Below, piece by piece: positions 741-54,920 of a stretch of 64,000 nt of DNA. Under the pieces are notes generated by a model. That model worked only from the letters and a program-made list of their open reading frames with translations, searched no databases and had not been told where the DNA came from. The translations under genes were made by a program, and so were the position numbers. The DNA is taken from contig DASPOF010000070.1 of assembly GCA_035626155.1 (NCBI GenBank), forward strand, positions 12,619 to 76,618, written 5' to 3'. Each line of letters starts with the position of its first letter. Position 1 is the first letter of the stretch. Source of the DNA: Candidatus Binataceae bacterium. Its GTDB lineage: Bacteria > Desulfobacterota > Binatia > Binatales > Binataceae.

Positions 741-808
741 CCCTCAATGATACGGGCCGCCGGGGCGATCTTCCAGAGAAGGGTAGCGCGCCATTGGCGC
801 CGTCCGTT

Positions 809-852
809 CCCTCTCCCGTTTTTCGATACGGGAGAGGGAAAGGGTGAGGGTG
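809..852. repeat. Hairpin plus G-rich tail element (family A): ccctctcccg-tttttcgata-cgggagaggg followed by aaagggtgagggtg.
   Basis: A perfect 10-bp inverted repeat that I read directly. The right arm plus tail contains four G3 tracts (GGGAGAGGGAAAGGGTGAGGG). Confidence 0.6.
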
Positions 853-1096
853 TCTGCCGCCTCGCCGCGGGCCGCCGGCGCACCCATTCTAAGGCTGGGC
901 CCGCGATTTCGACTCGCCCACAATTCAGTTCGCATAAGAGATATTATGTAAACTAGCTGGTAAAGCCTCGGCGGTTGCGCTAGGATCGCGCTCCAGACTC
1001 CTGGCGCACGGGCGGCCCGGTCGCGGAAGTGGTGCCAAGCCGCGATGGATGCGCGGCCTTCTGTGGTGTCATTCCCGCGCGTGCCTGGCGCGCGAG

Positions 1097-1116
1097 GAAT
1101 CCCGGATCCGGGATTC
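1097..1116. promoter_or_regulatory. Perfect 20-bp palindrome gaatcccggatccgggattc, about 70 bp upstream of the DUF3800-like gene. A candidate operator for a dimeric DNA-binding protein.
   Basis: A 10+10 perfect inverted repeat with no spacer, in a divergent intergenic region. Confidence 0.4.
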
Positions 1117-1186
1117 TCTGCGCCGGAAAATCACCGGCGCGAGAATGACAGGTGGTGGGCGCCGCGCCCCTTAGAGGTACCCAATC

Positions 1187-1948
1187 ATGCTTGAGTCCTA
1201 TGGCGACGAGAGCGGGACCGACGATCGCTCCTCTTTTGCTTCTTTCGGCGGATATCTGGCCGAGCAAGGGCAATGGAAGACTTTCTCCTCCGAGTGGCGA
1301 AGGGTCCTTCGGGAATTGAGACTACGTGAGCTATCGCCCGGGCTCGAGGACGACTTCCGCACGGGCAATTTCTATGCGCTCGCCAAGAAGGCAACGTGGT
1401 CGAAGGCTCGCAAAGATGAATGCGTGATTCGCCTGGCCCAGACGATCAAGAAACGCACACTAACCGGGTTTGCGGCGTTGGTCTCGACGCGCAATTACAA
1501 TTGCGCGTTCAGTGAGCCTATCCGGAAACGGCGCCTGAAGGATCGCTATTATCTACTGTTTGAGCAGGCGCTCATGATGCAGTGGCGGCTGCTCTACTAC
1601 GGCGGTTTTGCCGGGCGCGTGCCCGCGGCTTTTTTCTTCGATGAGAAGAAGGGATTCGAAAGTCGCGCCCTTAGAATCTTTGACGGGCTACAAAGGAGCT
1701 TCGATAAGAAACAGCTCATGGTAAGCAGAAAATTCGTCTCCAGCGCTGCCGTTGCGCCCATTCAGGCGGCCGACTTCATCGCGTTTGAGCTCCGACATTA
1801 CGGCTTACAGGGTGGCCATCTCTCCCCCAGCGTCACCACGGCCATGGACGCCCTCAAGAGAGACCTAATGGTGCATGAATTCAAACCGGCCGAACTCGCC
1901 ACAATCTCGAAGCGACTAGAAGAGAGAGCGGTCGAGAAACGGGCGTAG
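1187..1948 (+). CDS. Hypothetical protein, DUF3800-like. It has an N-terminal YGDESG motif and a C-terminal AADFIAFE motif.
   Basis: A 253-aa ORF with noticeably lower GC than its neighbours. The DESG and ADxxA motifs are as I recall them for the DUF3800 family. It is flanked by intergenic hairpin repeats. Confidence 0.5.
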   Translation: MLESYGDESGTDDRSSFASFGGYLAEQGQWKTFSSEWRRVLRELRLRELSPGLEDDFRTGNFYALAKKATWSKARKDECVIRLAQTIKKRTLTGFAALVSTRNYNCAFSEPIRKRRLKDRYYLLFEQALMMQWRLLYYGGFAGRVPAAFFFDEKKGFESRALRIFDGLQRSFDKKQLMVSRKFVSSAAVAPIQAADFIAFELRHYGLQGGHLSPSVTTAMDALKRDLMVHEFKPAELATISKRLEERAVEKRA

Positions 1949-2297
1949 CTCCTGGTCTCCTCCCGATCCTAGCTAGCCACTGCACCAGCACTCCCGATCA
2001 CTTCGTGTTGCCACCAGTCCGAATCGCGCTCTCGCCACGACGAGCTTGAGTGGCGCGATCCCCGGCGGTATATGTCGAGCGAGAGGCGCATCTGAGGAGG
2101 AATGTCGATGCGCGAAACTGCATACTGGTCGATCAGCGCGCTCGCTGGCATCGGGGCCATCGTCGAGTATACCCGCGGAGAATATGCCCTCGTCACGGCG
2201 ATTGCCGGGGCGCTTATTTTCGCACTGACCATTGCACCGGCTACGCGGCGCAATCTGCGCTGACGGCGTCGGACAAAGAAGAGCACCCCCTCTTTTA

Positions 2298-2563
2298 TTC
2301 TCCCCCGGAAAAGACCGGGGGAGAGAGTAAAAAAAAATATTCTCCGCCGGGAAAGACCGGGGGAGAGCTCGACCCCGGCCGGCTCCGGCGACTGTTCGGG
2401 CTTCAACCTGCCGATACGTGCGCGGCGACCCTCGCTCTCCCGCGATCTGTTCCGACCCAGGGTTAATCGGCCTGCCGCGCACAAGTTCATCCCCATCCTG
2501 AACGGATGAATCAGAGATACAAGGGTAAAAAAAATTCTCCGCCGGAAAAGACCGAGGGAGAGA
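2298..2563. repeat. Three copies of a roughly 28-bp palindromic unit (family B) with consensus TTCTCCsCCGG-(G)AAAAGA-CCGrGGGAGAG. They lie at about 2298-2326, 2340-2367 and 2535-2563. Each is flanked by A8-9 tracts.
   Basis: I read them directly. Copies 1 and 2 are separated by 'gtaaaaaaaaatat'. Copy 3 is preceded by 'gggtaaaaaaaa'. There is no credible coding potential here. Confidence 0.6.
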
Positions 2564-2615
2564 ATAAAGAAAGGCGCGGCCGGCGCACCTCGACCGCGAC
2601 CTTCTCTGCATCCTG

Positions 2616-3257
2616 CTATTCGCGGCGGGGGCGCGGCGCATCGGGAGCGCTTTTCGGCGGCTCCGCTGACGCGCCCAACTGACGGAGCAGGCGGCGCGCG
2701 GGGAAGCTCCCCGGATCGAGCTTGAGCGCGGCTTGCGCATACTCCAGCGCCGCGGACTGCCGATCGATGCGCGATGCGGCCCGCGCCATCGCCGCCAGCA
2801 GCTCGGCGCTGTCGCCGCCGAATTCGCGCGCCCGCGTGAGCGCATCGAGGGCGGCCTCGTGATGGTTCTGCTCGGCGAGCGCCTGCCCGAGGCCCGCCAG
2901 CGCCTGCGCGTTCAGCGGGTCGATCTCGATCGCCTCGCGGTATAGCGCGATCGCGTTTCGCCGTGCGCCCTTCCCGTGCAAGTCTCGCGCCGCGGCGGCC
3001 AGCCGCGCACCCTCCTGCGGCCATCCGCGCGCCTCGACATCGACCTCTATCTGCTCCGCTGAGAAAACCGCCTTGAGGATTTTGATCTGCGCGCCGAGGT
3101 ACTCCCCGATGCGCTCCAGGATCTCATCGCCCTGCGACTCGGGCGCGCGCAGGAACGCGCTTCCCACGGAATCGCCGATATGGTCGTCGCGCCGGATGAT
3201 GAGCGAGCGGCGTCGTCGATTCGATGGGGGGCGTCTGCCGTCCTCAGACTCGCTCAT
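2616..3257 (-). CDS. Tetratricopeptide (TPR) repeat protein.
   Basis: TPR-like repeats of the form ...ALYREAIEIDPLNAQALAGLGQALAEQNHHEAALDALTRA.... It overlaps the dgt stop by 14 nt, which suggests co-transcription. Confidence 0.55.
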   Translation of the reverse strand: MSESEDGRRPPSNRRRRSLIIRRDDHIGDSVGSAFLRAPESQGDEILERIGEYLGAQIKILKAVFSAEQIEVDVEARGWPQEGARLAAAARDLHGKGARRNAIALYREAIEIDPLNAQALAGLGQALAEQNHHEAALDALTRAREFGGDSAELLAAMARAASRIDRQSAALEYAQAALKLDPGSFPARRLLRQLGASAEPPKSAPDAPRPRRE

Positions 3258-4437
3258 CGGGGTCGAACAGTTTGCGATATTCGTCGAGTGCGAATCGATC
3301 GGTCATCCCGGCGATGTAATCCGCGACCACGCGCGGGATTGCCTCGCCGTCGCGCTCGGCGCGCGCAAGGATGTGTTCGGGCATCTGGCGAGGCTCGGCC
3401 ATGTAGGTCTCGAACAGGCGCGCGAGCACCCTGCCCGCTTTTTCCGTCATCCGGCTGACCCGGTAATGGCGATAGAGGCGCTCGCGCATGATCTCCTTGA
3501 GTTCCTCGACCTTCTCCGCCATGACCGGCGAGAACGATGCGAGCGCCCTGCCCGCCCGCCGGACGTCATCGACGCTCCCGATGCCGGCCCGCTCGATTTC
3601 CGCGGCGATGTGCGTCATCAGATCGGTGGACATCGCATCGATCATCCTGATGACGGTCTGGTAGCGCTCCACGCGGCCCACCCCCGCCGGGTCTGCCTCG
3701 CGCGCCCCCGCAGCCGCATCGCGATACAGCGCCGAGCCGTTCAGATTCTCGACCGTCAGCATCTGCGCCTTCAGCCCGTCGTCCACATCGTGGGCGAGGT
3801 ATGCGATCTCATCGGCGAGATCGACGATCTGCGCCTCGAGGCACGGAAATGCCGAGAGGTCGAACTCGCGCGCCGCCGGGCGCTCCCTGAAATCGGAGTG
3901 CTTGATGATTCCCTCGCGGACCTCGAAGCTCAGGTTGAGCCCGCGAAAGCGCGGGTAGCGGACTTCGATCCAGTCCACGGTGCGGAGGCTCTGCGCGTTG
4001 TGGTCGAAGCCGCCGTGCGGCTGCATCAGGCTGTTCAGCATGATTTCGCCGGCATGCCCGAACGGCGTATGGCCGAGATCGTGCGCGAGCGCGACCGCCT
4101 CGGCGAGTTCCTCATTGAGGCCGAGCGCGCGCGCCACCGTGCGCGCGATCTGCGCCGCTTCGAGCGTGTGCGTAAGCCGGGTGCGGTAGTAATCGCCCTC
4201 GTGATTAACGAAGACCTGGGTTTTGTATTCGAGGCGGCGGAAGGCTGCCGAGTGGATAATCCGGTCGCGATCGCGCTGGAAGACGGTGCGAATCGGATGG
4301 TCGGGTTCCGCGATGCGCCGGCCGCGGCTCAACCGCGAGAGCATCGCGTACGGCGCCAGCGTGCGCGCCTCGATTTCCTCCAACTCCTGCCGTGTCCGCA
4401 GCATAGATTCGCGGGGATTGGCGACCGTTGCAGTCAT
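3244..4437 (-). CDS. dgt: dGTP triphosphohydrolase-like HD-domain protein.
   Basis: An HD motif ...VALAHDLGHTPFGHAGE... with ...YRTRLTHTLEAAQIAR... and the full length typical of Dgt-like proteins. Confidence 0.85.
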   Translation of the reverse strand: MTATVANPRESMLRTRQELEEIEARTLAPYAMLSRLSRGRRIAEPDHPIRTVFQRDRDRIIHSAAFRRLEYKTQVFVNHEGDYYRTRLTHTLEAAQIARTVARALGLNEELAEAVALAHDLGHTPFGHAGEIMLNSLMQPHGGFDHNAQSLRTVDWIEVRYPRFRGLNLSFEVREGIIKHSDFRERPAAREFDLSAFPCLEAQIVDLADEIAYLAHDVDDGLKAQMLTVENLNGSALYRDAAAGAREADPAGVGRVERYQTVIRMIDAMSTDLMTHIAAEIERAGIGSVDDVRRAGRALASFSPVMAEKVEELKEIMRERLYRHYRVSRMTEKAGRVLARLFETYMAEPRQMPEHILARAERDGEAIPRVVADYIAGMTDRFALDEYRKLFDPDERV

Positions 4438-4544
4438 CGCGATGCTACCACGGCTCGGCGGCGCTCCGAAGCGCCCAGGCGGGGATCGATCAACAGCAAC
4501 GGACGGGTTTCATTTGCCGTCGGTTGGAGAGGCGGCATTCTGAG

Positions 4545-4581
4545 CCCTCTCCCTGTAGCTGGGAGAGGGTATGGGTGAGGG
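4545..4581. repeat. Family A element: ccctctccc-tgtagct-gggagaggg followed by tatgggtgaggg.
   Basis: A 9-bp inverted repeat plus a G3-N3-G3-N3-G3-N3-G3 tract, in the divergent dgt/rlpA intergenic region. Confidence 0.55.
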
Positions 4582-6801: not shown

Positions 6802-6946
6802 TACGGAAACGCGAGCGGCGAAATTTGCGTCACGGCGCCCGCAGGATCGTAGGTGTCGGCGTTGACCAGGCTGCTGCTGGGATCCACCGGGGCTCAGCGC
6901 AGTGTTGACTCCAAGTGGCCCTCAACCCCTTCGCACTATTACTTCA

Positions 6947-7546
6947 TCAATAACATCGGCTCCAGAGCTCGTCCGTATAAAGCTCAACGGCGTACCAGTG
7001 CCTTTCGAGGCGACGTACAACAGAGACCTCACAGGGTATGCCGCTGAACCGGCCAGACTGGCCCTTATCTGCGGCGGCTGACAGAGAATCACTCGGATCA
7101 AAAACAACGTAGACCGTGGTGTCCTGTCCGGCCCAGCCCCAACCGTCCCATTCAGTATGCTTCAGCTCCCCTTCTGTAGGTACAGCTTCTGCCAGAACCC
7201 TGGCCTTGTAATACTTCGAAAATACGACCCATCTGACAACGTTTCGGATTCCGCTTTGATTTGTCACCAGAACCGCGGAAATTGTCCAACCCAAGAGGAG
7301 CATCGACAAAGTTGGGACCCAGCGGCGGGTTCTTCTTGCAATTGCATTCTTCACCAGTAAACCAATCCAGATGAGGCTGATGATTAGTACAGCGGCCAAG
7401 TACGCCAACAGCCACAGGTCTGGTTCCAAGAATGCCGCAGGCGCAAAAAGGATGAGATTGCCCGCAACCACGTACAACAGCAGCCGCCGCCACCTAAAAC
7501 GCTTTTGTCCCGCAGCTTCTTCCATCACGCATCCCCTTGGAAGCAT
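6947..7546 (-). CDS. Hypothetical membrane protein with 2 predicted TM helices and a soluble C-terminal domain. It sits in a low-GC segment.
   Basis: A 199-aa ORF. The region around 6850-7620 is visibly AT-richer than its flanks. It has hydrophobic stretches LLLYVVAGNLILFAPAAF and LAAVLIISLIWIGLLV. It may start at the internal MEEAAG. Confidence 0.45.
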   Translation of the reverse strand: MLPRGCVMEEAAGQKRFRWRRLLLYVVAGNLILFAPAAFLEPDLWLLAYLAAVLIISLIWIGLLVKNAIARRTRRWVPTLSMLLLGWTISAVLVTNQSGIRNVVRWVVFSKYYKARVLAEAVPTEGELKHTEWDGWGWAGQDTTVYVVFDPSDSLSAAADKGQSGRFSGIPCEVSVVRRLERHWYAVELYTDELWSRCY

Positions 7547-7708
7547 AGTTCAATGATCGCCACGGTAGGCAATGCCCGAATCGCTGTTGGAATTGAGTAA
7601 GGGCTCGATAGTCATTGAGGCGGTCTACTTTGGACTGTCAGCTCTACGATCGAGTATGGTGTCGTGAGCGCCCGCCGGGGCGATGGACGGCGGCGCGACC
7701 GTCCGGCG

Positions 7709-10414: not shown

Positions 10415-13400
10415 TCAGCGGGGATGATAATCCTGAAGGGCGCGGACTTCCATGCGCTCGCGCTTGAGAGCCTTGATTCCCTCGACCGCCGCCTGCGCGC
10501 CCGCCATCGTCGTGAAGTACGGCAGCCTGAGCTCCAGAGCGGTTCGCCGGATCGAAAACGAGTCCGCGGTGCCGCTCGCGTCGGGCGTGTTTATCACCAT
10601 CGCGATTTTGCCCTCGCGCATCCGATCGACCACGTGCGGACTGCCCTGCAAGACCTTATTGACCGGCTCGCACGGATGGCCGAGGCCCTCGATGTAACGC
10701 GCGGTGCCACGCGTCGCGATCAAATCAAAGCCCATCGCCGTGAGCCCGTCCACGATCGGGGCAAGCTCGGCCTTGTCTTCATCGCGCACGCTGATGAAGA
10801 CCCGGCCCGCAGCGGGCAGGTCCGAGGATGCGGCCAGCTCCGCCTTGGCGAAGGCCATCGCGAACGACATGTCGATGCCCATGACCTCGCCGGTCGATTT
10901 CATCTCGGGACCGAGAATGGTATCGACCCCCGGGAAGCGCGCGAACGGGAAGACGGATTCCTTGACCGCGAGGTGGACCGGCACGCGCTCGGTGGCGAAG
11001 CCGAGTTCGCGCAGCGTCTTTCCGGTCATGATTAGCGAGGCGAGTTTCGCGAGCGGGACGCCGATTGCTTTGCTCACGAACGGAATCGTGCGCGATGCTC
11101 TCGGGTTCACCTCGAGGATGTAAATCTCGCCGCGATAAATCGCGTACTGGACGTTGATCAGCCCGACGACGCCGAGTTCGCGCGCGAGCATCCGGGTCTG
11201 ATCCGCAAGCCCGCGCTGGATCTCGGGCGTGAGCGTTCGTGGCGGCAGGACGCACGCGCTGTCTCCCGAGTGGATCCCGGCATGTTCCACGTGCTCCATG
11301 ATTCCGCCGATCACGACCGTCTCTCCGTCCGAGATCGCGTCCACATCGACCTCGATCGCGCCGTCGAGATATCGGTCGATCAGCAGCGGATGGCGCTCGG
11401 AGGCTTCGAAAGCCTGCGCGACGTAACGGCGCAGCGCCGACTCGTCGACAATCACTTCCATCGCGCGCCCGCCGAGCACGTAGGAGGGCCGGATGAGAAC
11501 CGGGTAGCCGATTCGCGCCGCTCCCCTGACGGCCTCATCGAGGCTGCGCGCGAGCACCCCTTTGGGCTGCCTGAGACCGAGCTTTTCCACCAGTACGTTG
11601 AAGCGCTCGCGATCCTCGGCGCGATCGATCGCATCGGGACTCGTGCCGAGAATCGCAACGCCGGCCTTCGCGAGCGGCACCGCCAGCTTGAGCGGCGTCT
11701 GCCCTCCGAATTGCACGATCACGCCGAGCGGCTTCTCGCGCTCGGCGATCGCGATGACATCCTCGAACGTGAGCGGCTCGAAGTAGAGGCGGTCCGAGAC
11801 GTCGTAGTCGGTCGAGACGGTTTCGGGATTGCAGTTGACCATGATCGTCTCGAAGCCCGCCTCCTTGAGTGCGAGGCTCGCGTGGACGCAGCAATAGTCG
11901 AACTCGATCCCCTGCCCTATCCGGTTCGGCCCGCCGCCGAGAATCATCACCTTGCGCCGGTCATCGGGCGGTGCTTCGTCCTCGCCTTCGTATGTCGAGT
12001 AGAGATACGGCGTGTACGCCTGGAACTCGGCGCCGCAGGTATCGACTGTCTTGAAGACCGGCATCACGCCCGACTCGCGCCGGCGTGCGGCGATCTCCGG
12101 CTCGTCCGTTCGCCTGAGATCGGCGATTCGCCGATCGGAAAATCCCATCGCCTTGAATTCGCGGAAGTACTCGGCCGAAAGCGGCTCGCTCGCGGCGCGG
12201 CGCTCCGCCTGAACGATTCGCGCGATGCCGTCGATGAACCACGGATCGATCTTCGTGAGTTCGTACGCCTCGGCCTCCGACATCCCCAGGCGCAGCGCGT
12301 CGGCCAGATGGTGCAGTCGGTGGCTGCTCGGCATCGCGATGCGGGCGCGGAGCGCCTCCAGCGCGCGCTCACGGCCCTGCTCTGCAAGCGTGCTCTCCAG
12401 TCCGTAGGAGCCGATCTCAAGCGACCGCAGCGCCTTTTGAAGGGATTCCGTGAACGTGCGGCCGATCGCCATCACCTCGCCCACCGACTTCATCTGCGGG
12501 CCCAGCTCGTCAACGGCGCCACGGAATTTTTCGAACGTGAAGCGCGGAATTTTGGTGACGACGTAATCGATGGTCGGCTCGAAGCAGGCGGGCGTCATCC
12601 TGGTGATGTCGTTGGGGATTTCATCGAGCCGGTAGCCGACGGCGAGACGCGCCGCAATCTTCGCGATCGGGAAGCCGGTCGCCTTCGATGCGAGCGCCGA
12701 GCTGCGCGACACGCGCGGGTTCATCTCGATCACCACCATGCGCCCGGTGCGCGGCTCGATCGCGAACTGGATGTTCGAGCCGCCCGTGTCCACGCCGATT
12801 TCGCGGATGATCCTCTGCGCGGCATCGCGCATGAGCTGATATTCCTTGTCGGTCAGCGTCTGGGCGGGCGCGATCGTGATCGAGTCGCCGGTGTGCACGC
12901 CCATCGGATCGAGGTTCTCGATCGAGCAGACGATCACGACGTTGTCGGCGCAATCGCGCATCACTTCGAGCTCGAATTCCTTCCACCCCTCGATTGATTC
13001 CTCGAGCAGCACTTCGTGGCTTGGCGAGATATCGAGTCCCCATGCGACCCTGGAACGGAATTCGCCCTCGGTGCGCGCGATCGATCCGCCGGTGCCGCCG
13101 AGCGTGCGCGAGGGGCGGATAATCAGCGGCAGGCCGAGCGTTGCGCGAACGCCCTCGGCATCGTCCAATGAGTGCGCGATCGCGGAGCGCGGAACCTCGA
13201 GCCCGATATTGAGCATCGCGCGCTTGAACAGCTCGCGGTCCTCGGCCTTCTTGATCGCGTCGAGCCGCGCGCCGATAAGCTCGCAGCCGTAGCGCTCGAG
13301 CACACCCGACTCGGACAGCTCGATCGCGAGATTGAGCGCAGTCTGCCCGCCAACCGTCGGCAGCAGAGCGCCGGGCCGCTCGCGCTCGATGATTCGGGCG

Positions 13401-13621
13401 ATCGAGCCTGCGGTCATCGGCTCGATATAAGTGCGATCGGCCAGCTCGGGGTCGGTCATAATCGTGGCGGGATTGGAGTTGATCAGGATCAGGCGCAGGC
13501 CTTCCTGGCGAAGCGCCCGAAGCGCCTGCGTGCCTGAGTAATCGAACTCGCACGCCTGGCCGATCACGATCGGTCCCGACCCAATCAGCAGAACTGATTT
13601 GAGATCTTTGCGAAGCGGCAC
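10415..13621 (-). CDS. carB: Carbamoyl-phosphate synthase large subunit.
   Basis: 1068 aa with duplicated ATP-grasp halves (...[23 protein letters not shown]... and ...[23 protein letters not shown]...) and a C-terminal MGS-like domain. Confidence 0.95.
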
Positions 13622-13673
13622 TTCAGATTTCCCGGCACTCCCGGTTCGCGGCCTTACGCCGCGCGCCGGCGAG

Positions 13674-14876
13674 TCAGTTTTTCCTCACCGCCTCCTCGGC
13701 GGCTATGCGTTCGATGGATTCGGCGCCGTAGCGCGGGAATAGCTCCACCATCCGTTTGAATCGCGCGAACAGGTAATTCGAGTCGTGCGGACCGGGCGAT
13801 GCCTCCGGATGGTACTGCACTGAGAAAAAAGGGACGCCGCGCCCGCGCAATCCCTCGACGGTTCGATCGTTCAGATTGAGATGAGATAGGTCGGCCCGCT
13901 CCTTGACCGACTCGGCCTCCACCGCGAAGCCGTGATTCTGCGCGGTGATTTCGACCCGCCCGGTGCGAAGATCCATCACCGGATGATTCGCGCCGTGATG
14001 GCCGAAGTCGAGCTTGTAGGTGCGTCCGCCCAGCGCGAGACCGAGAATCTGGTGGCCGAGGCAAATCCCGAAAATTGGCTTGCGCCCCAGCACTCCCGCA
14101 ACCGCGTTGTACGCATACGGAAGCGCCGCCGGGTCCGCCGGGCCGTTGGAGAGGAAAATGCCGTCGGGCTGGTGCGAGAGGATCTGCTCCGCAGTCGACG
14201 ATGCGGGCAGCACGCGCACTCTGAAGCCGGTCGATACGAGCCGGCGCAATATGTTGAGCTTGATCCCGTAATCCAGCGCGACGACCAACGGCGCATCGCG
14301 AAGTTCGCCGCGCCCGCGACGGGCATAGCCCCGGCCCAACTCCCATCCGCCGATTTCCCAATCGTACGGCTCGGCGCAGGTGACTTCCTTGACGAGATCG
14401 CGTCCAACGAGCCCTGGCGATGCTTTCGCTTTGCGCACCAGCGCGTCGCTGTCGAGGTCGGTGCTGGAGATGACCGCCTCCTGCGCGCCGTGAGTGCGGA
14501 TATGGCGGACCAGCGCGCGTGTGTCGATTCCTTCGATCCCGACGATGCCCGCCTGAGCGAGATATTCCCCCAGCGGCATCTCGGAGCGCCAGTTCGACGG
14601 ACGCTGCCAGCATTCCTTGACGATGAAGCCATCGACGTAGACGCGCCGCGATTCGACGTCCTCGCGGTTCACGCCGACATTTCCGATTTCGGGATACGTC
14701 ATGCAGACGAGCTGGCCCTTGTAGGACGGGTCGGTGAGAATTTCCTGGTATCCGGTCATCGCGGTGTTGAACACGACCTCGCCGACCGTCTCGCCGATCG
14801 CGCCAAAGGCGCGCCCTCGGAAGACGCGCCCATCGGCAAGGGCGAGAATCGCGTCGCGTCGTGCGCCCGTACTCAT
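13674..14876 (-). CDS. carA: Carbamoyl-phosphate synthase small (glutaminase) subunit.
   Basis: ...[21 protein letters not shown]... with the GATase triad region ...GICLGHQ.... Its start overlaps the pyrC stop by 4 nt. Confidence 0.95.
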
Positions 14877-16240
14877 CGCAGTTCACCTCGCCGTCCGTCG
14901 AACACGATCTCACCGCCGACGATGGTCATCACCGCCCTCCCCTTAAGCCGCATCCCCGCGAACGGCGTATTGCGGCTGCGCGACAGGAATCGCTCCGGCT
15001 CCACCGTCCATTCGAGATTCGGGTCAACCACCGTAATGTCCGCGGGCGCTTCCACGGCCAGCGTGCCAGCCTCGAGCCTGAGCAGCGCTGCGGGATTTAC
15101 CGACATGAGTTCGACCAATCGCCCCGCGCCAATCAAACCACAATGCACGAGGCCGAGCGCAAGGCCAAGGGCGGTCTCCAACCCCACGACGCCGTTGGCC
15201 GATTGCGCGAATATCGCCGCGACATCGGGCGCGAGCCGCTCGGCGTCGCGCGCGGGATTGAAGTACCCGGCCAGGGCATCGAGGCGCTTCGATGCGGGGT
15301 CGTGCGGCGCGTGATCGGTCGCAATCATATCGATGCCGCCGTGGCCGATTGCATCGCGGAGCGCATCCACGTCATCGCGGCTTCGAAGCGGCGGGTTCAT
15401 CTTCGCGTTCGGGCCCCATCGCAGCGCCGCGCTCTCATCGAGCGCAAAGTGATGCGGCGTTACTTCGCACGTGACGCGCGCGCCGCGCTTGCGCGCAGCC
15501 GCAACCAACTCGACCGACTCGCGCGTCGAGACATGCGCGATGTGGACCGCGGCTTCGGTTCCGATCGCAAGCGAGAGATCGCGCCTCACCCGCTCCGACT
15601 CGGCAGGCCCACTGTAACCGTGAACGCCGAGGCGCTCGGCGACGGCGCCCGCGTTGACCGCGCCTTCGTCCGAGAGCGAGCGCTCTTCCTCATGGAGTGA
15701 GATCGCGAAGCCCAGTTGGTTGATTTCATCCATCGCGCGCGACAGAACCGCGGCGTCATCTACCGGGATGCCGTCGTCCGAGAACAGGCGCGCCCCCGCC
15801 GCGGCCATCGCGGCATAATCGACCGTCTCGGCTCCGCTAAGCCCTCGCGTTACCGCCGAGACCGGAACCAGCCGCGTGGAGCGCGCCTCAGCGGCGCGTT
15901 CGAGCATGTACCGGGTAATCTCGCGCGTGTCGTTCACGGGCGACGTGTTCGCCATCGCGGCAACGGTGGTAAAGCCGCCCGCCGCTGCGGCGCGCAGGCC
16001 GCTCGCGATGGTCTCCTTCTGGGGGAAGCCCGGATCGCGCAGATGGACGTGCGGATCGATTAGTCCCGGCAGCACCCACCATCCGGTCGCATCGATGACC
16101 GCCGCCCCATCGCCGCCGCGCAGCGACCCGGGGCGATCGACGGCTTCGATCTTTCCGTCGACCACCAGGACATCCGATGCGGCGTCGATTCCTGATGCGG
16201 GATCGACCACGCGGCCGGCCTTCAACAAAAGCGGTCTCAT
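14873..16240 (-). CDS. pyrC: Dihydroorotase.
   Basis: [13 protein letters not shown]...[15 protein letters not shown].... I verified an ATG at 16240 in the sequence, and it makes an ATGA overlap with the pyrB* stop. The upstream extension of the ORF is rejected. Confidence 0.9.
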
Positions 16241-54873: not shown

Positions 54874-54920
54874 TCCTCCCCCATTTTTTGATATGGGGGA
54901 GGAATAAGGTGGGGGTGCAG
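54874..54920. repeat. Family A-type element: tcctccccca-ttttttgata-tgggggagga followed by ataaggtgggggtgcagggg.
   Basis: A 10-bp perfect inverted repeat plus a G-tract tail resembling the tails at 839-852 and 4570-4581. Confidence 0.55.

What the first reader, a model, noticed from the sequence alone, without database searches (positions are those of the whole stretch)
900..2615. A lower-GC islet carrying a DUF3800-like gene, bracketed by hairpin repeat elements and fronted by a perfect 20-bp palindrome
The 253-aa ORF has the N-terminal (Y)GDESG and C-terminal AADFIA motifs I associate with the DUF3800 family. Its function is unknown, and it is sporadically distributed and often accessory. 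The gene and its flanks are visibly AT-richer than the neighbouring core genes. Upstream lies a family-A hairpin/G4 element (809-852) and a perfect palindrome gaatcccggatccgggattc (1097-1116). Downstream are about 670 bp of non-coding DNA with three family-B hairpins. No partner gene is evident, so if this is a functional module it is single-gene.
Basis: partly seen in the sequence, partly recalled or inferred. Interest (0 to 1): 0.55.

Follow-up and report, generated by a model that had tools for sequence, protein, structure and literature searches.

The report
Stranded DUF3800 nuclease gene beside dif
A single foreign-looking gene for an RNase H-like protein (DUF3800) lies right beside the chromosome's dimer-resolution site (dif) in a Binataceae genome. 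In related genomes the same spot is repeatedly hit by IS1595 transposons carrying such genes, so this is most likely stranded transposon cargo rather than a new system.

Summary

The context changes the interpretation:
- **Native dif site.** The AT-rich stretch at 927-954 is not inserted DNA. It is the chromosomal dif site, conserved in 35 related Binatia loci and lying at the GC-skew switch.
- **True insert.** About 40 Binataceae genomes keep the flanking synteny (RlpA, dGTPase, TPR, DsbA) without this gene, and nine of them have an empty gap of 275-354 bp.
- **IS1595 link.** In five relatives an IS1595 transposon end lies 4-5 nt from dif. In L029 an 8-bp target duplication overlaps dif. These transposons often carry a DUF3800 gene convergent with the transposase. 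Most of the window protein's closest homologues are such cargo, under dN/dS of about 0.08.
- **No IS remains here.** The window copy has no transposase, inverted repeats or duplication left, and its GC3 is only partly ameliorated.
- **Palindrome and hairpins.** The 20-bp palindrome is the junction of two inverted REP-like units. The family-B hairpins read as minus-strand terminators.

The verdict is an orphaned IS1595 cargo gene in the dif-flank hot spot. Its biochemical role is untested.

The parts
804..850 (.). Family-A REP-like hairpin (arms 804-819 and 828-843) whose 3' part forms a G4 motif (830-850). It is native intergenic DNA between DsbA and dif and is not part of the insert.
   Evidence: Sister elements lie at 4540-4581 and 54874-54920.
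927..954 (+). Chromosomal dif site, AGTTCGCATAA-GAGATA-TTATGTAAACT (XerC arm, 6-nt spacer, XerD arm). It marks the replication terminus and the preferred landing point of IS1595 elements in relatives.
   Evidence: It matches E. coli dif at 21 of 28 positions and B. subtilis dif at 22 of 28. It is found once in each of 35 related loci. The GC-skew sign changes here.
958..2570 (.). Approximate extent of the accessory (inserted) segment, between the XerD side of dif and the native 3' terminator of the TPR gene. The exact ends cannot be defined.
   Evidence: Nine relatives have an empty TPR-DsbA gap of 275-354 bp, with about 125-200 nt between dif and the TPR stop in those checked. Outside the CDS and dif there is no DNA similarity to any related locus.
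1067..1150 (.). REP-like doublet of two inverted units, 1068-1103 (+) and 1110-1149 (-), of the form GTCATTC, a GC hairpin, then GAATCCC. Their junction is the perfect 20-bp palindrome at 1097-1116. As RNA it folds into an outer stem enclosing three hairpins.
   Evidence: (-75 kcal/mol, z -2.8).
1187..1948 (+). DUF3800 gene (253 aa), a predicted RNase H-like nuclease. D7, E8, D152, Q193 and D196 are invariant in the subfamily.
2102..2263 (+). 53-aa hydrophobic ORF of doubtful reality. It has no relatives and no family.
2297..2377 (-). Family-B hairpin copies 1 and 2. On the minus strand, copy 2 is a hairpin followed by T9, which looks like a terminator. Copy 1 extends into a long A/T-closed hairpin.
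2527..2572 (-). Family-B hairpin copy 3. On the minus strand it is a hairpin followed by T8, which looks like a terminator.
2575..2598 (-). Terminator-like GC hairpin just after the stop codon of the TPR gene (2616-3257, minus strand). It marks the native right-hand edge.

Best explanation
The region is the flank of the chromosomal dif site (927-954) at the replication terminus of a Candidatus Binataceae genome. A DUF3800 gene has been inserted on the XerD-arm side of dif.

Origin. In this bacterial group, IS1595-family transposons of about 2 kb carry a DUF3800 gene convergent with the DDE transposase. The layout is left inverted repeat, DUF3800 gene, transposase on the opposite strand, right inverted repeat. 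They insert with 8-bp duplications, repeatedly at the edge of dif. The window's gene is most likely the surviving cargo of such an element. Its transposase and inverted repeats have since been deleted or eroded. A REP-like doublet invaded its leader, creating the 20-bp palindrome. Terminator-like hairpins lie between it and the convergent TPR-dGTPase operon.

Mechanism of the protein (inferred). The fold and motifs are shown here, but activity is not. It is a stand-alone, metal-dependent RNase H-like nuclease. Its acidic residues D7/E8, D152 and D196, plus Q193, fit an RNase HII-type active site, although no residue-level superposition was made. It probably cuts RNA-DNA hybrids or another structured nucleic acid. 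DUF3800 domains occur in retron type VII and in Cas12a2, Cas12a3 and type VI-F loci, and the IS-borne copies are under strong purifying selection. I therefore think it most likely acts as a conflict or defence-type cargo that benefits the element or the host (about 0.4). It is less likely a transposition helper (about 0.15) or a now-idle remnant (about 0.2).
For: **Identity and fold**
- Pfam DUF3800 scores above the gathering cut-off.
- D7, E8, D152, Q193 and D196 are invariant.

**dif**
- It occurs once per locus in 35 related loci, including distant Binatia.
- GC skew is +0.025 to the left and -0.023 to the right.
- Genes converge on the site.

**Insertion**
- RlpA-dGTPase-TPR synteny is conserved in about 40 Binataceae genomes, with DsbA following in the 22 whose gaps could be measured. 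None carries this gene at the site. The gap ranges from 275-354 bp up to 4.8 kb.
- GC3 is 0.685, below all confident host ORFs, but above the 0.53 of the IS-borne L010 copy and the orphan L007 copy.

**IS1595 link**
- P0007 lies in different flanks within an identical 2,027-bp unit bounded by inverted repeats, with the 8-bp duplication CAGGGGAA.
- The transposase matches NCBIfam IS1595 at 185 bits.
- A convergent transposase accompanies P0004, P0006, P0007, P0008 and P0009. P0012 retains an N-terminal stub plus one inverted repeat.
- At the same dif flank, L049 and L029 carry DUF3800 plus transposase. L028, L048 and L055 carry IS1595 elements with no detected DUF3800 gene.
- In all five, the inverted repeat starts 4-5 nt after dif. 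In L029 the duplication CGGCTAGT overlaps the XerD arm.
- L049 also holds a 1,034-bp transposase-less unit with both inverted repeats and only a DUF3800 gene.
- The outgroups (L015, L029, L049) are IS-borne, so the orphans are the derived state.

**Selection**
- dN/dS is 0.07-0.08 among IS-borne copies. For the window copy against its homologues, pN is 0.23-0.28 against saturated pS of 0.79-0.88, and the ORF is intact.
Against: - The window holds no transposase relic, inverted repeat or target duplication, so the IS origin rests on homologues and on the site, not on scars.
- The closest relatives by dGTPase identity (L017, L019, L024, 85%) show neither dif nor DsbA in the DNA fetched. No near-isogenic empty site is therefore available.
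- Three members of the window's own clade are orphans (window, L007, L009). A more distant DUF3800 clade showed no IS1595 transposase in any of 4 loci.
- IS1595 elements at the same site can lack a DUF3800 gene. The 224-aa ORF in the cargo position of L028 is not DUF3800, and no DUF3800 was detected beside the transposase in L048.
- Nuclease activity, substrate and any defence role are untested. PADLOC and PHROGs gave no hit.
- The GC-skew evidence covers only 73 kb.
Confidence: 0.65

Rival explanations
1. The islet is an IMEX, an element integrated at dif by the host XerC/XerD recombinases in the manner of CTX phage or the gonococcal genetic island. On this reading it is not a transposon remnant.
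For: It lies directly beside dif on one side. It carries no recombinase of its own, which is typical of IMEXs. The dif flank also holds other variable cargo in relatives, including a RelA_SpoT-like gene in L020 and a beta-helix protein in L027.
Against: The window has no second dif-like site, allowing up to 9 mismatches of 28, and no extra XerD-arm-like 11-mer. In relatives the elements abutting dif have DDE-transposon inverted repeats, and in L029 an 8-bp duplication, which are marks of transposition and not of Xer recombination. About 110 nt plus a REP doublet separate dif from the gene.
Confidence: 0.1
2. DUF3800 is a working accessory subunit of this IS1595 lineage, for example a second-strand nuclease or a target-selection factor for dif and hairpin targets. 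On this reading the window copy is a functionless leftover.
For: The DUF3800-transposase pairing spans DUF3800 proteins only 25-30% identical to each other. dN/dS is 0.07-0.08. Insertion sits at a fixed offset from dif and also inside REP hairpins.
Against: IS1595 elements with the same inverted repeats at the same site exist without a detected DUF3800 gene (L028, L048). A DUF3800-only unit with both inverted repeats exists. The orphan copies in the window, L007 and L009 remain intact with all catalytic residues. Many DUF3800 genes have no transposase nearby.
Confidence: 0.12
3. The gene forms a two-part module with a structured non-coding RNA in its flanks, as proposed for the 11 DUF3800-associated RNA motifs. 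The three-hairpin leader (1067-1150) or the 667-bp downstream region would be that RNA.
For: Weinberg et al. 2017 found 11 unrelated RNA motifs beside DUF3800 genes, on either side and either strand, several with terminators. The leader folds with z -2.8. Terminator-like hairpins lie downstream.
Against: No Rfam family, including DUF3800-I to -XI, reaches significance in the window or in the homologue loci. The leader structure is built from two copies of a dispersed REP-type unit. No flank sequence is conserved between the window and any homologue locus. The conserved IS leader shows essentially no covariation, with 1 compensatory pair in 4 sequences. All seven contigs carrying the window locus are identical or nearly so (at least 99.95%), so covariation cannot be tested.
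Confidence: 0.08
4. The perfect 20-bp palindrome is an operator for a dimeric transcription factor that controls the DUF3800 gene.
For: The palindrome is perfect and unique in 64 kb, and lies 71 nt upstream of the start codon.
Against: It is exactly the junction of two inverted REP-like units. Each of its arms is the conserved GAATCCC end of such a unit, and units of this type occur elsewhere in related genomes (L007, L010, L018, L033). No regulator gene is adjacent. No homologue locus has the palindrome.
Confidence: 0.07
5. The gene is an ancestral core gene of this lineage that was lost in the other genomes.
For: It is intact, and it is fixed in all seven contigs that carry the locus.
Against: It is absent from this site in about 40 syntenic genomes. 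Its GC3 lies below every confident host ORF. Only 12 homologues were found among 5.8 billion clusters, most of them on IS elements.
Confidence: 0.03

Closest known systems
Pfam PF12686 / DUF3800 family (RNase H-like fold, function unknown)
   Same: It scores above the gathering cut-off, has the N-terminal DE and C-terminal QxxD motifs, has a predicted fold like type-2 RNase H, is a stand-alone protein of about 250 aa, and is sporadically distributed.
   Different: It belongs to a very small subclade. Only 3 clusters at 50% identity score E <= 1e-30, against 3,684 at E <= 1e-3. It is not next to any Rfam DUF3800 RNA motif.
IS1595-family insertion sequences that carry passenger genes. ISfinder lists subgroups with passenger genes, such as ISPna2+ and ISNwi1+ (Siguier et al. 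2009). I recall this from memory and did not verify it here.
   Same: The closest homologues lie inside 2-kb units with about 23-bp inverted repeats, an IS1595 DDE transposase with a zinc ribbon, and 8-bp duplications.
   Different: The window copy has lost every IS feature. I found no report in the held literature of DUF3800 as the passenger gene, or of insertion at the edge of dif.
Chromosomal dif sites and dif-flanking islands (IMEXs such as CTX phage, TLC and the gonococcal genetic island; pdif modules on Acinetobacter plasmids)
   Same: Accessory DNA lies immediately beside a 28-bp XerC/XerD site at the terminus.
   Different: There is no second dif-like site. The mobile elements seen at this site in relatives are DDE transposons.
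Retron type VII (DUF3800 effector) and the DUF3800 accessory proteins (TPR-fused where described) of Cas12a2, Cas12a3 and type VI-F CRISPR loci
   Same: They share the domain family and the predicted RNase H-like nuclease chemistry, and they suggest a role in conflict systems.
   Different: No reverse transcriptase or cas gene was seen among the flanking genes examined, and the protein has no fused TPR. The neighbouring TPR gene is a syntenic core gene that overlaps the dGTPase gene. PADLOC gave no hit.
REP/BIME-type repetitive extragenic palindromes
   Same: They are short GC-rich hairpin units found in intergenic DNA, sometimes as inverted pairs, and are known IS targets. The IS in L010-L012 sits inside such a hairpin.
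   Different: Copy numbers in the 64 kb are low. Family B is only a local triplication and looks more like a terminator array.
Type-2 RNase H (RNase HII/HIII)
   Different: Sequence identity is only 9-15%. There are extra helical insertions and a QxxD C-terminal motif. There was no sequence-level hit to any PDB chain.

Membership tests
DUF3800 (PF12686) | Pfam HMM score at or above the gathering cut-off | tested here: met
   29.9 bits against a cut-off of 21, E 1.1e-6, covering profile positions 4-147 of 149.
DUF3800 (PF12686) | N-terminal DE motif and C-terminal QxxD motif (Mestre et al. 2020) | tested here: met
   D7-E8 and Q193-A-A-D196 are invariant across 10 subfamily members.
DUF3800 (PF12686) | RNase H-like fold | tested here: met
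DUF3800 (PF12686) | Nuclease activity | not testable with these tools
   This needs biochemistry.
IS1595-family transposon (as a resident element in the window) | IS1595 DDE transposase gene | tested here: not met
   tblastn and HMM searches found no hit above chance anywhere in the window.
IS1595-family transposon (as a resident element in the window) | Terminal inverted repeats and an 8-bp target duplication | tested here: not met
   No inverted-repeat-like match in 700-2800, allowing up to 7 mismatches.
IS1595-family transposon (origin of the gene) | Homologues lie inside bounded IS1595 units that have moved | tested here: met
   In L010-L012 the same 2,027-bp unit lies in different flanks with the duplication CAGGGGAA. 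In L029 the duplication is CGGCTAGT. The transposase matches NF033547 at 185 bits.
dif (XerC/XerD chromosome dimer resolution site) | 28-bp site of 11 + 6 + 11 nt with partly palindromic arms, similar to experimentally confirmed dif sites | tested here: met
   AGTTCGCATAA-GAGATA-TTATGTAAACT matches E. coli dif at 21 of 28 and B. subtilis dif at 22 of 28. The XerD arm is identical to that of B. subtilis.
dif (XerC/XerD chromosome dimer resolution site) | Single copy, conserved across the clade, lying at the GC-skew switch | tested here: met
   It occurs once in the 64 kb and once in each of 35 related loci. The skew is +0.025 to the left and -0.023 to the right. The whole genome was not available.
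dif (XerC/XerD chromosome dimer resolution site) | Binding and recombination by XerC/XerD | not testable with these tools
   This needs an experiment. The xerC and xerD genes were not looked for.
IMEX (Xer-integrated element) | The element is flanked by dif and a second dif-like (attP-derived) site | tested here: not met
   Only one site was found in the window, allowing up to 9 mismatches of 28.
Retron type VII | Adjacent retron reverse transcriptase and msr/msd RNA | tested here: not met
   The neighbours are DsbA, TPR and dGTPase. There was no PADLOC hit and no Rfam hit.
CRISPR-associated TPR-DUF3800 | A TPR domain fused to DUF3800, and adjacent cas genes | tested here: not met
   The protein is DUF3800 only. 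The neighbouring TPR gene is conserved in synteny with dGTPase in genomes that lack DUF3800.
Rfam DUF3800-I to -XI RNA motifs | Covariance-model match near the gene | tested here: not met
   No DUF3800 motif appeared even at E <= 10 in 600-2800, and none in the homologue loci.
REP-like element (palindrome at 1097-1116) | Built from a repeated unit that is also found elsewhere | tested here: met
   Two inverted units lie at 1068-1103 and 1110-1149. The same unit type occurs in L007, L010, L018 and L033.
Intrinsic terminator (family B, minus strand) | GC-rich hairpin followed directly by a T run | tested here: inconclusive
   Copies 2 and 3 have T9 and T8 after the stem on the minus strand. The strict consensus scan did not list them, because their stems contain a mismatch.

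The most novel reading that the evidence does not exclude
Binatia harbour a lineage of IS1595-family transposons that targets the outer edge of the XerD arm of dif, with the 8-bp duplication overlapping dif. This lineage keeps an RNase H-like DUF3800 gene as a selected, functional component rather than a random passenger. The protein might process RNA-DNA hybrids, act in target choice at dif or at hairpin DNA, or serve as an addiction or defence module. The window's gene would then be a copy domesticated at the terminus. If so, DUF3800, whose function has been open since 11 unrelated RNA motifs were found beside it, would gain a concrete and testable genetic context.
Probability: 0.12. Interest if true: 0.7.

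Novelty: new member of a known kind. Interest (0 to 1): 0.35.

Why it matters
The window's gene is by itself an ordinary orphan of a known family with unknown function. The value lies in the context.
- It locates dif, and therefore the replication terminus, for an uncultured class (Binatia).
- It shows that the dif flank is a recurrent insertion hot spot there.
- It links a DUF3800 clade to IS1595 transposons as cargo under strong purifying selection. I could not find this association in the held literature.

DUF3800 also appears in retron and CRISPR accessory roles and beside many orphan RNA motifs. A simple two-gene mobile unit offers a tractable way to test what this nuclease does.

Tried and rejected
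- **Defence and phage families.** PADLOC and PHROGs gave no hit.
- **Rfam.** A permissive scan of 600-2800 gave only chance-level hairpin hits. Homologue loci L007-L012 gave only a sub-threshold whalefall-1 hit on a REP-like hairpin in L007.
- **tRNA-like reading of the three-hairpin leader.** ARAGORN found nothing.
- **Decayed transposase in the 667-bp downstream region.** tblastn was at chance level. One local DNA alignment to the L016 tail had z = 4 among 26 tests, and I did not pursue it.
- **Relic inverted repeats, or similarity to the IS leader, in 955-1186 and 1949-2615.** None found.
- **Sigma-70 promoter scan of 700-2700.** None found.
- **The 53-aa ORF as a conserved partner.** It has no relatives, and the small ORFs beside homologues are unrelated to one another.
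- **The L028 cargo ORF as a divergent DUF3800.** hhalign probability was 0.1.
- **Conserved structure in the IS leader.** It is conserved in sequence but shows no real covariation.
- **Annotated plasmids.** No match.
- **Metagenome-contig scan.** It added only six loci.
- **PDB by sequence.** No match.
- **Early readings of the 26-mer.** I first took it for a promoter, and then for an IS end, before recognising dif.
- **Literature.** Searches for an IS1595-DUF3800 link or an IS1595-dif link found nothing.
Full report
**Observation.** ORF 1187-1948 (+) encodes 253 aa with YGDESG near the N-terminus and IQAADFIA near the C-terminus. Pfam places it in DUF3800 (PF12686) at 29.9 bits against a gathering cut-off of 21. 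The exact protein is on record as a DUF3800 protein of a Candidatus Binataceae MAG. Seven metagenome or MAG contigs carry it in the same neighbourhood, identical or nearly so (at least 99.95%) in DNA.

The gene is compositionally atypical. Its GC is 0.564 and its GC3 is 0.685. The 35 long high-GC3 ORFs of the window have median GC3 0.80 and minimum 0.706. The family-A hairpin (804-843) with its G4 motif (830-850) is real. So are the perfect, unique 20-bp palindrome (1097-1116) and the three family-B hairpins in the 667 bp downstream.

No relative has a solved structure by sequence. PADLOC, PHROGs and NCBIfam do not recognise it. An exhaustive profile search finds 3,684 representatives at E <= 1e-3 and 600 at E <= 1e-10, but only 3 at E <= 1e-30. 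The window's protein therefore belongs to a rare subclade of a large family.

**The homologues are transposon cargo.** The word-indexed search found only 11 other relatives, at 47-67% identity. P0007 occurs on contigs with unrelated upstream genes, but inside an identical unit. Alignment shows the shared DNA starting at GGGGATTAGGTGACTGTTGACTC and ending at its inverted copy. The unit is 2,027 bp and is flanked by the 8-bp duplication CAGGGGAA.

The unit holds the DUF3800 gene and a convergent gene for an IS1595-family DDE transposase. The transposase has the Pfam Zn_ribbon_IS1595 and DDE_Tnp_IS1595 domains and matches NCBIfam NF033547 at 185 bits. The same convergent pairing holds for P0004, P0006 (L099), P0008 and P0009. 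P0012 (L015) keeps only an N-terminal transposase stub plus one inverted repeat. P0002 (L009), P0003 (L007) and the window have no transposase and no inverted repeat.

IS-borne copies evolve under dN/dS of 0.07-0.08. The window's copy differs from its homologues with pN 0.23-0.28 against saturated pS of 0.79-0.88, and it is intact.

**The gene is an insert in a conserved neighbourhood.** I scanned one genome per species with the neighbouring dGTPase-like protein, which gave 80 Binatia loci. In about 40 of them (dGTPase identity 72-85%) the order RlpA, dGTPase, TPR is kept. DsbA follows in the 22 whose gaps could be measured. None has this DUF3800 gene at the site.

The TPR-DsbA gap is 275-354 bp in nine genomes, 0.6-1.2 kb in six and 2.1-4.8 kb in seven. 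It is about 1.87 kb in the window. The larger gaps hold varied contents: a RelA_SpoT-like gene with an extra DsbA, a beta-helix protein, and IS1595 elements. L049 has a DUF3800 gene convergent with an IS1595 transposase, plus a second DUF3800 gene. L028 has an IS1595 transposase. L029 has a DUF3800 gene convergent with a broken transposase beside dif. These DUF3800 proteins are only 25-30% identical to the window's and to one another, while the transposases are 53-75% identical.

**The site is dif.** A blastn search with the window's flanks found no similarity to relatives apart from one short stretch. That stretch is 27-44 nt at about 925-960, at 84-97% identity in more than 25 loci. A pattern search found it once per locus in 35 related loci, including distant ones where the dGTPase is only 58-61% identical.

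Written as AGTTCGCATAA-GAGATA-TTATGTAAACT (927-954), it has the 11-6-11 layout of a XerC/XerD dif site. It matches E. coli dif at 21 of 28 positions and B. subtilis dif at 22 of 28, and its XerD arm is identical to that of B. subtilis. Both reference sequences are printed in Kono et al. 2011 (PMC3025954).

GC skew is +0.025 over the 9.7 kb to the left, using L001 joined to the window, and -0.023 over the 63 kb to the right. Every 4-kb bin from 7187 onward is negative. Called genes converge on the site. The accessory segment lies between about 958 and the TPR terminator at about 2570.

**IS1595 elements land at the edge of dif.** In L028, L029, L048, L049 and L055, which are five different species representatives, an IS1595 inverted repeat begins 4-5 nt after the XerD arm. 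The repeat reads GGGGGATTGGGTG...TTGACAC or GGGCGATTTTGTTG...GACAC. Sometimes the transposase end lies next to dif and sometimes the cargo end.

In L029 the element (12140-14978) is flanked by the 8-bp duplication CGGCTAGT, which includes the last three bases of dif. In L049 two units lie in tandem after dif. The second (11103-12136, 1,034 bp) has both inverted repeats but holds only a DUF3800 gene.

Together with L015, this gives a decay series. It runs from the intact IS, to a truncated transposase, to a transposase-less unit that still has inverted repeats, to orphan genes with no scars (window, L007, L009). The more distant IS-borne copies (L015, L029, L049) are outgroups to the window's clade, so the orphan state is the derived one. 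The window's GC3 (0.685) lies between the 0.53 of the IS-borne L010 and orphan L007 copies and the host level of 0.80, as expected for an old, partly ameliorated insert.

**The palindrome and the hairpins.** The 20-bp palindrome is the centre of an 84-nt imperfect palindrome at 1067-1150. That larger palindrome is made of two inverted units of the form GTCATTC, a GC hairpin, then GAATCCC, at 1068-1103 (+) and 1110-1149 (-). The palindrome is simply the two GAATCCC(GG) ends lying head to head. Units of the same type lie just upstream of the orphan homologue in L007, beside the IS in L010, and elsewhere in L018 and L033. As RNA the region folds into an outer stem with three hairpins (z -2.8). 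It is not tRNA-like and matches no Rfam family.

Family A has two relatives in the window, at 4540-4581 and 54874-54920, and lies on the DsbA side of dif, in native DNA. Family B occurs nowhere else in the window or in 1.08 Mb of related DNA. On the minus strand, copies 2 and 3 are GC hairpins followed by T9 and T8, directly in line with the terminator-like hairpin after the TPR stop codon. I read them as a terminator array that shields the insert from the convergent TPR-dGTPase operon. This is an inference.

**Limits.** Nothing in the window itself proves an IS origin. There is no transposase relic, inverted repeat or duplication. The three closest genomes show neither dif nor DsbA in the DNA fetched. 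A more distant DUF3800 clade showed no IS1595 transposase in any of 4 loci. Some IS1595 elements at the same site have no detected DUF3800 gene. An IMEX origin is unlikely, because there is no second dif-like site, but it is not excluded. The DUF3800-RNA association reported by Weinberg et al. could not be tested here, because the contigs carrying the locus are nearly identical and the flanks share nothing with homologue loci. Enzymatic activity and biological role remain untested.

**Verdict.** The object is a known kind of gene, a DUF3800 RNase H-like protein. It is most probably a stranded cargo gene of an IS1595-family transposon, lying in the dif-flank insertion hot spot at the replication terminus. 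The hairpins and the palindrome are REP-like or terminator elements, not boundaries or operators. The window itself is of modest interest. The DUF3800-IS1595-dif association seen in relatives is the part worth following up.

Noticed in passing
window 927-954: This is the chromosomal dif site, AGTTCGCATAA-GAGATA-TTATGTAAACT, so the window starts at the replication terminus. The GC skew changes sign here, and the linkage of dif to the dGTPase gene is conserved across Binatia.
   Followed up: yes
L028:12433-12486, L029:14955-15008, L048:9706-9759, L049:8820-8873, L055:8757-8810: In five species, IS1595-family inverted repeats begin 4-5 nt after the XerD arm of dif, in either orientation. In L029 the 8-bp duplication CGGCTAGT overlaps dif. 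This suggests site-specific targeting of the edge of dif.
   Followed up: partly
L049:11103-12136: A 1,034-bp unit has both IS1595-type inverted repeats but contains only a DUF3800 gene. It is a transposase-less, possibly trans-mobilisable derivative, lying in tandem with a full IS beside dif.
   Followed up: partly
L045:8992-9017, L050:9054-9079, L057:8981-9006: In these genomes dif lies in frame inside the predicted N-terminal region of DsbA, encoding SLHNISYA between a signal-peptide-like stretch and the mature domain. In the window it lies 190 nt upstream of the DsbA start.
   Followed up: no
L021, L022, L026, L030, L032, L033, L035, L038, L044: about 12-45 nt after dif: A second conserved block, (C)TGAAAATCGAAAAAGGCCTGAAATCATTG, follows dif in many loci that have nothing inserted directly next to dif. 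It is absent from the window. Its function is unknown.
   Followed up: no
window 6900-7650: A second low-GC patch (0.51-0.56) holds a 199-aa membrane-protein-like ORF at 6947-7546 (-), with no Pfam hit on record and no PHROG family. The cumulative G-C maximum lies at 6907.
   Followed up: partly
window 4540-4581 and 54874-54920: These are sister copies of the family-A hairpin. The only two G4 motifs on the + strand of the 64 kb (830-850 and 4561-4581) both belong to this family.
   Followed up: partly
L010:7830-7860; L011 and L012 flanks: The intact IS1595-DUF3800 element is inserted in the middle of a REP-like hairpin (CCCCTTCCCC..GGGGAAGGGG). REP hairpins and dif may share a feature that these elements target.
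   Followed up: no
L048:7273-7326, L037:13971-14024: IS1595 ends lie back to back, 6 nt apart, so elements pile up in tandem or next to one another.
   Followed up: no
L020:9162-12055, L027:8889-11102: The dif flank holds other cargo in relatives: a RelA_SpoT-domain protein of 360 aa with an extra DsbA-domain protein, and a 737-aa beta-helix protein.
   Followed up: partly
L105:2680-7759: A distant DUF3800 gene, together with a 408-aa gene of unknown function, lies between two CbiQ genes. This may be an insertion next to a duplicated gene.
   Followed up: no
window 2616-3257 and 3244-4437 (-): The 213-aa TPR gene overlaps the 3' end of the dGTPase-like HD gene by 14 nt, and the two are syntenic across Binataceae. 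They are probably one operon ending at the terminus.
   Followed up: partly
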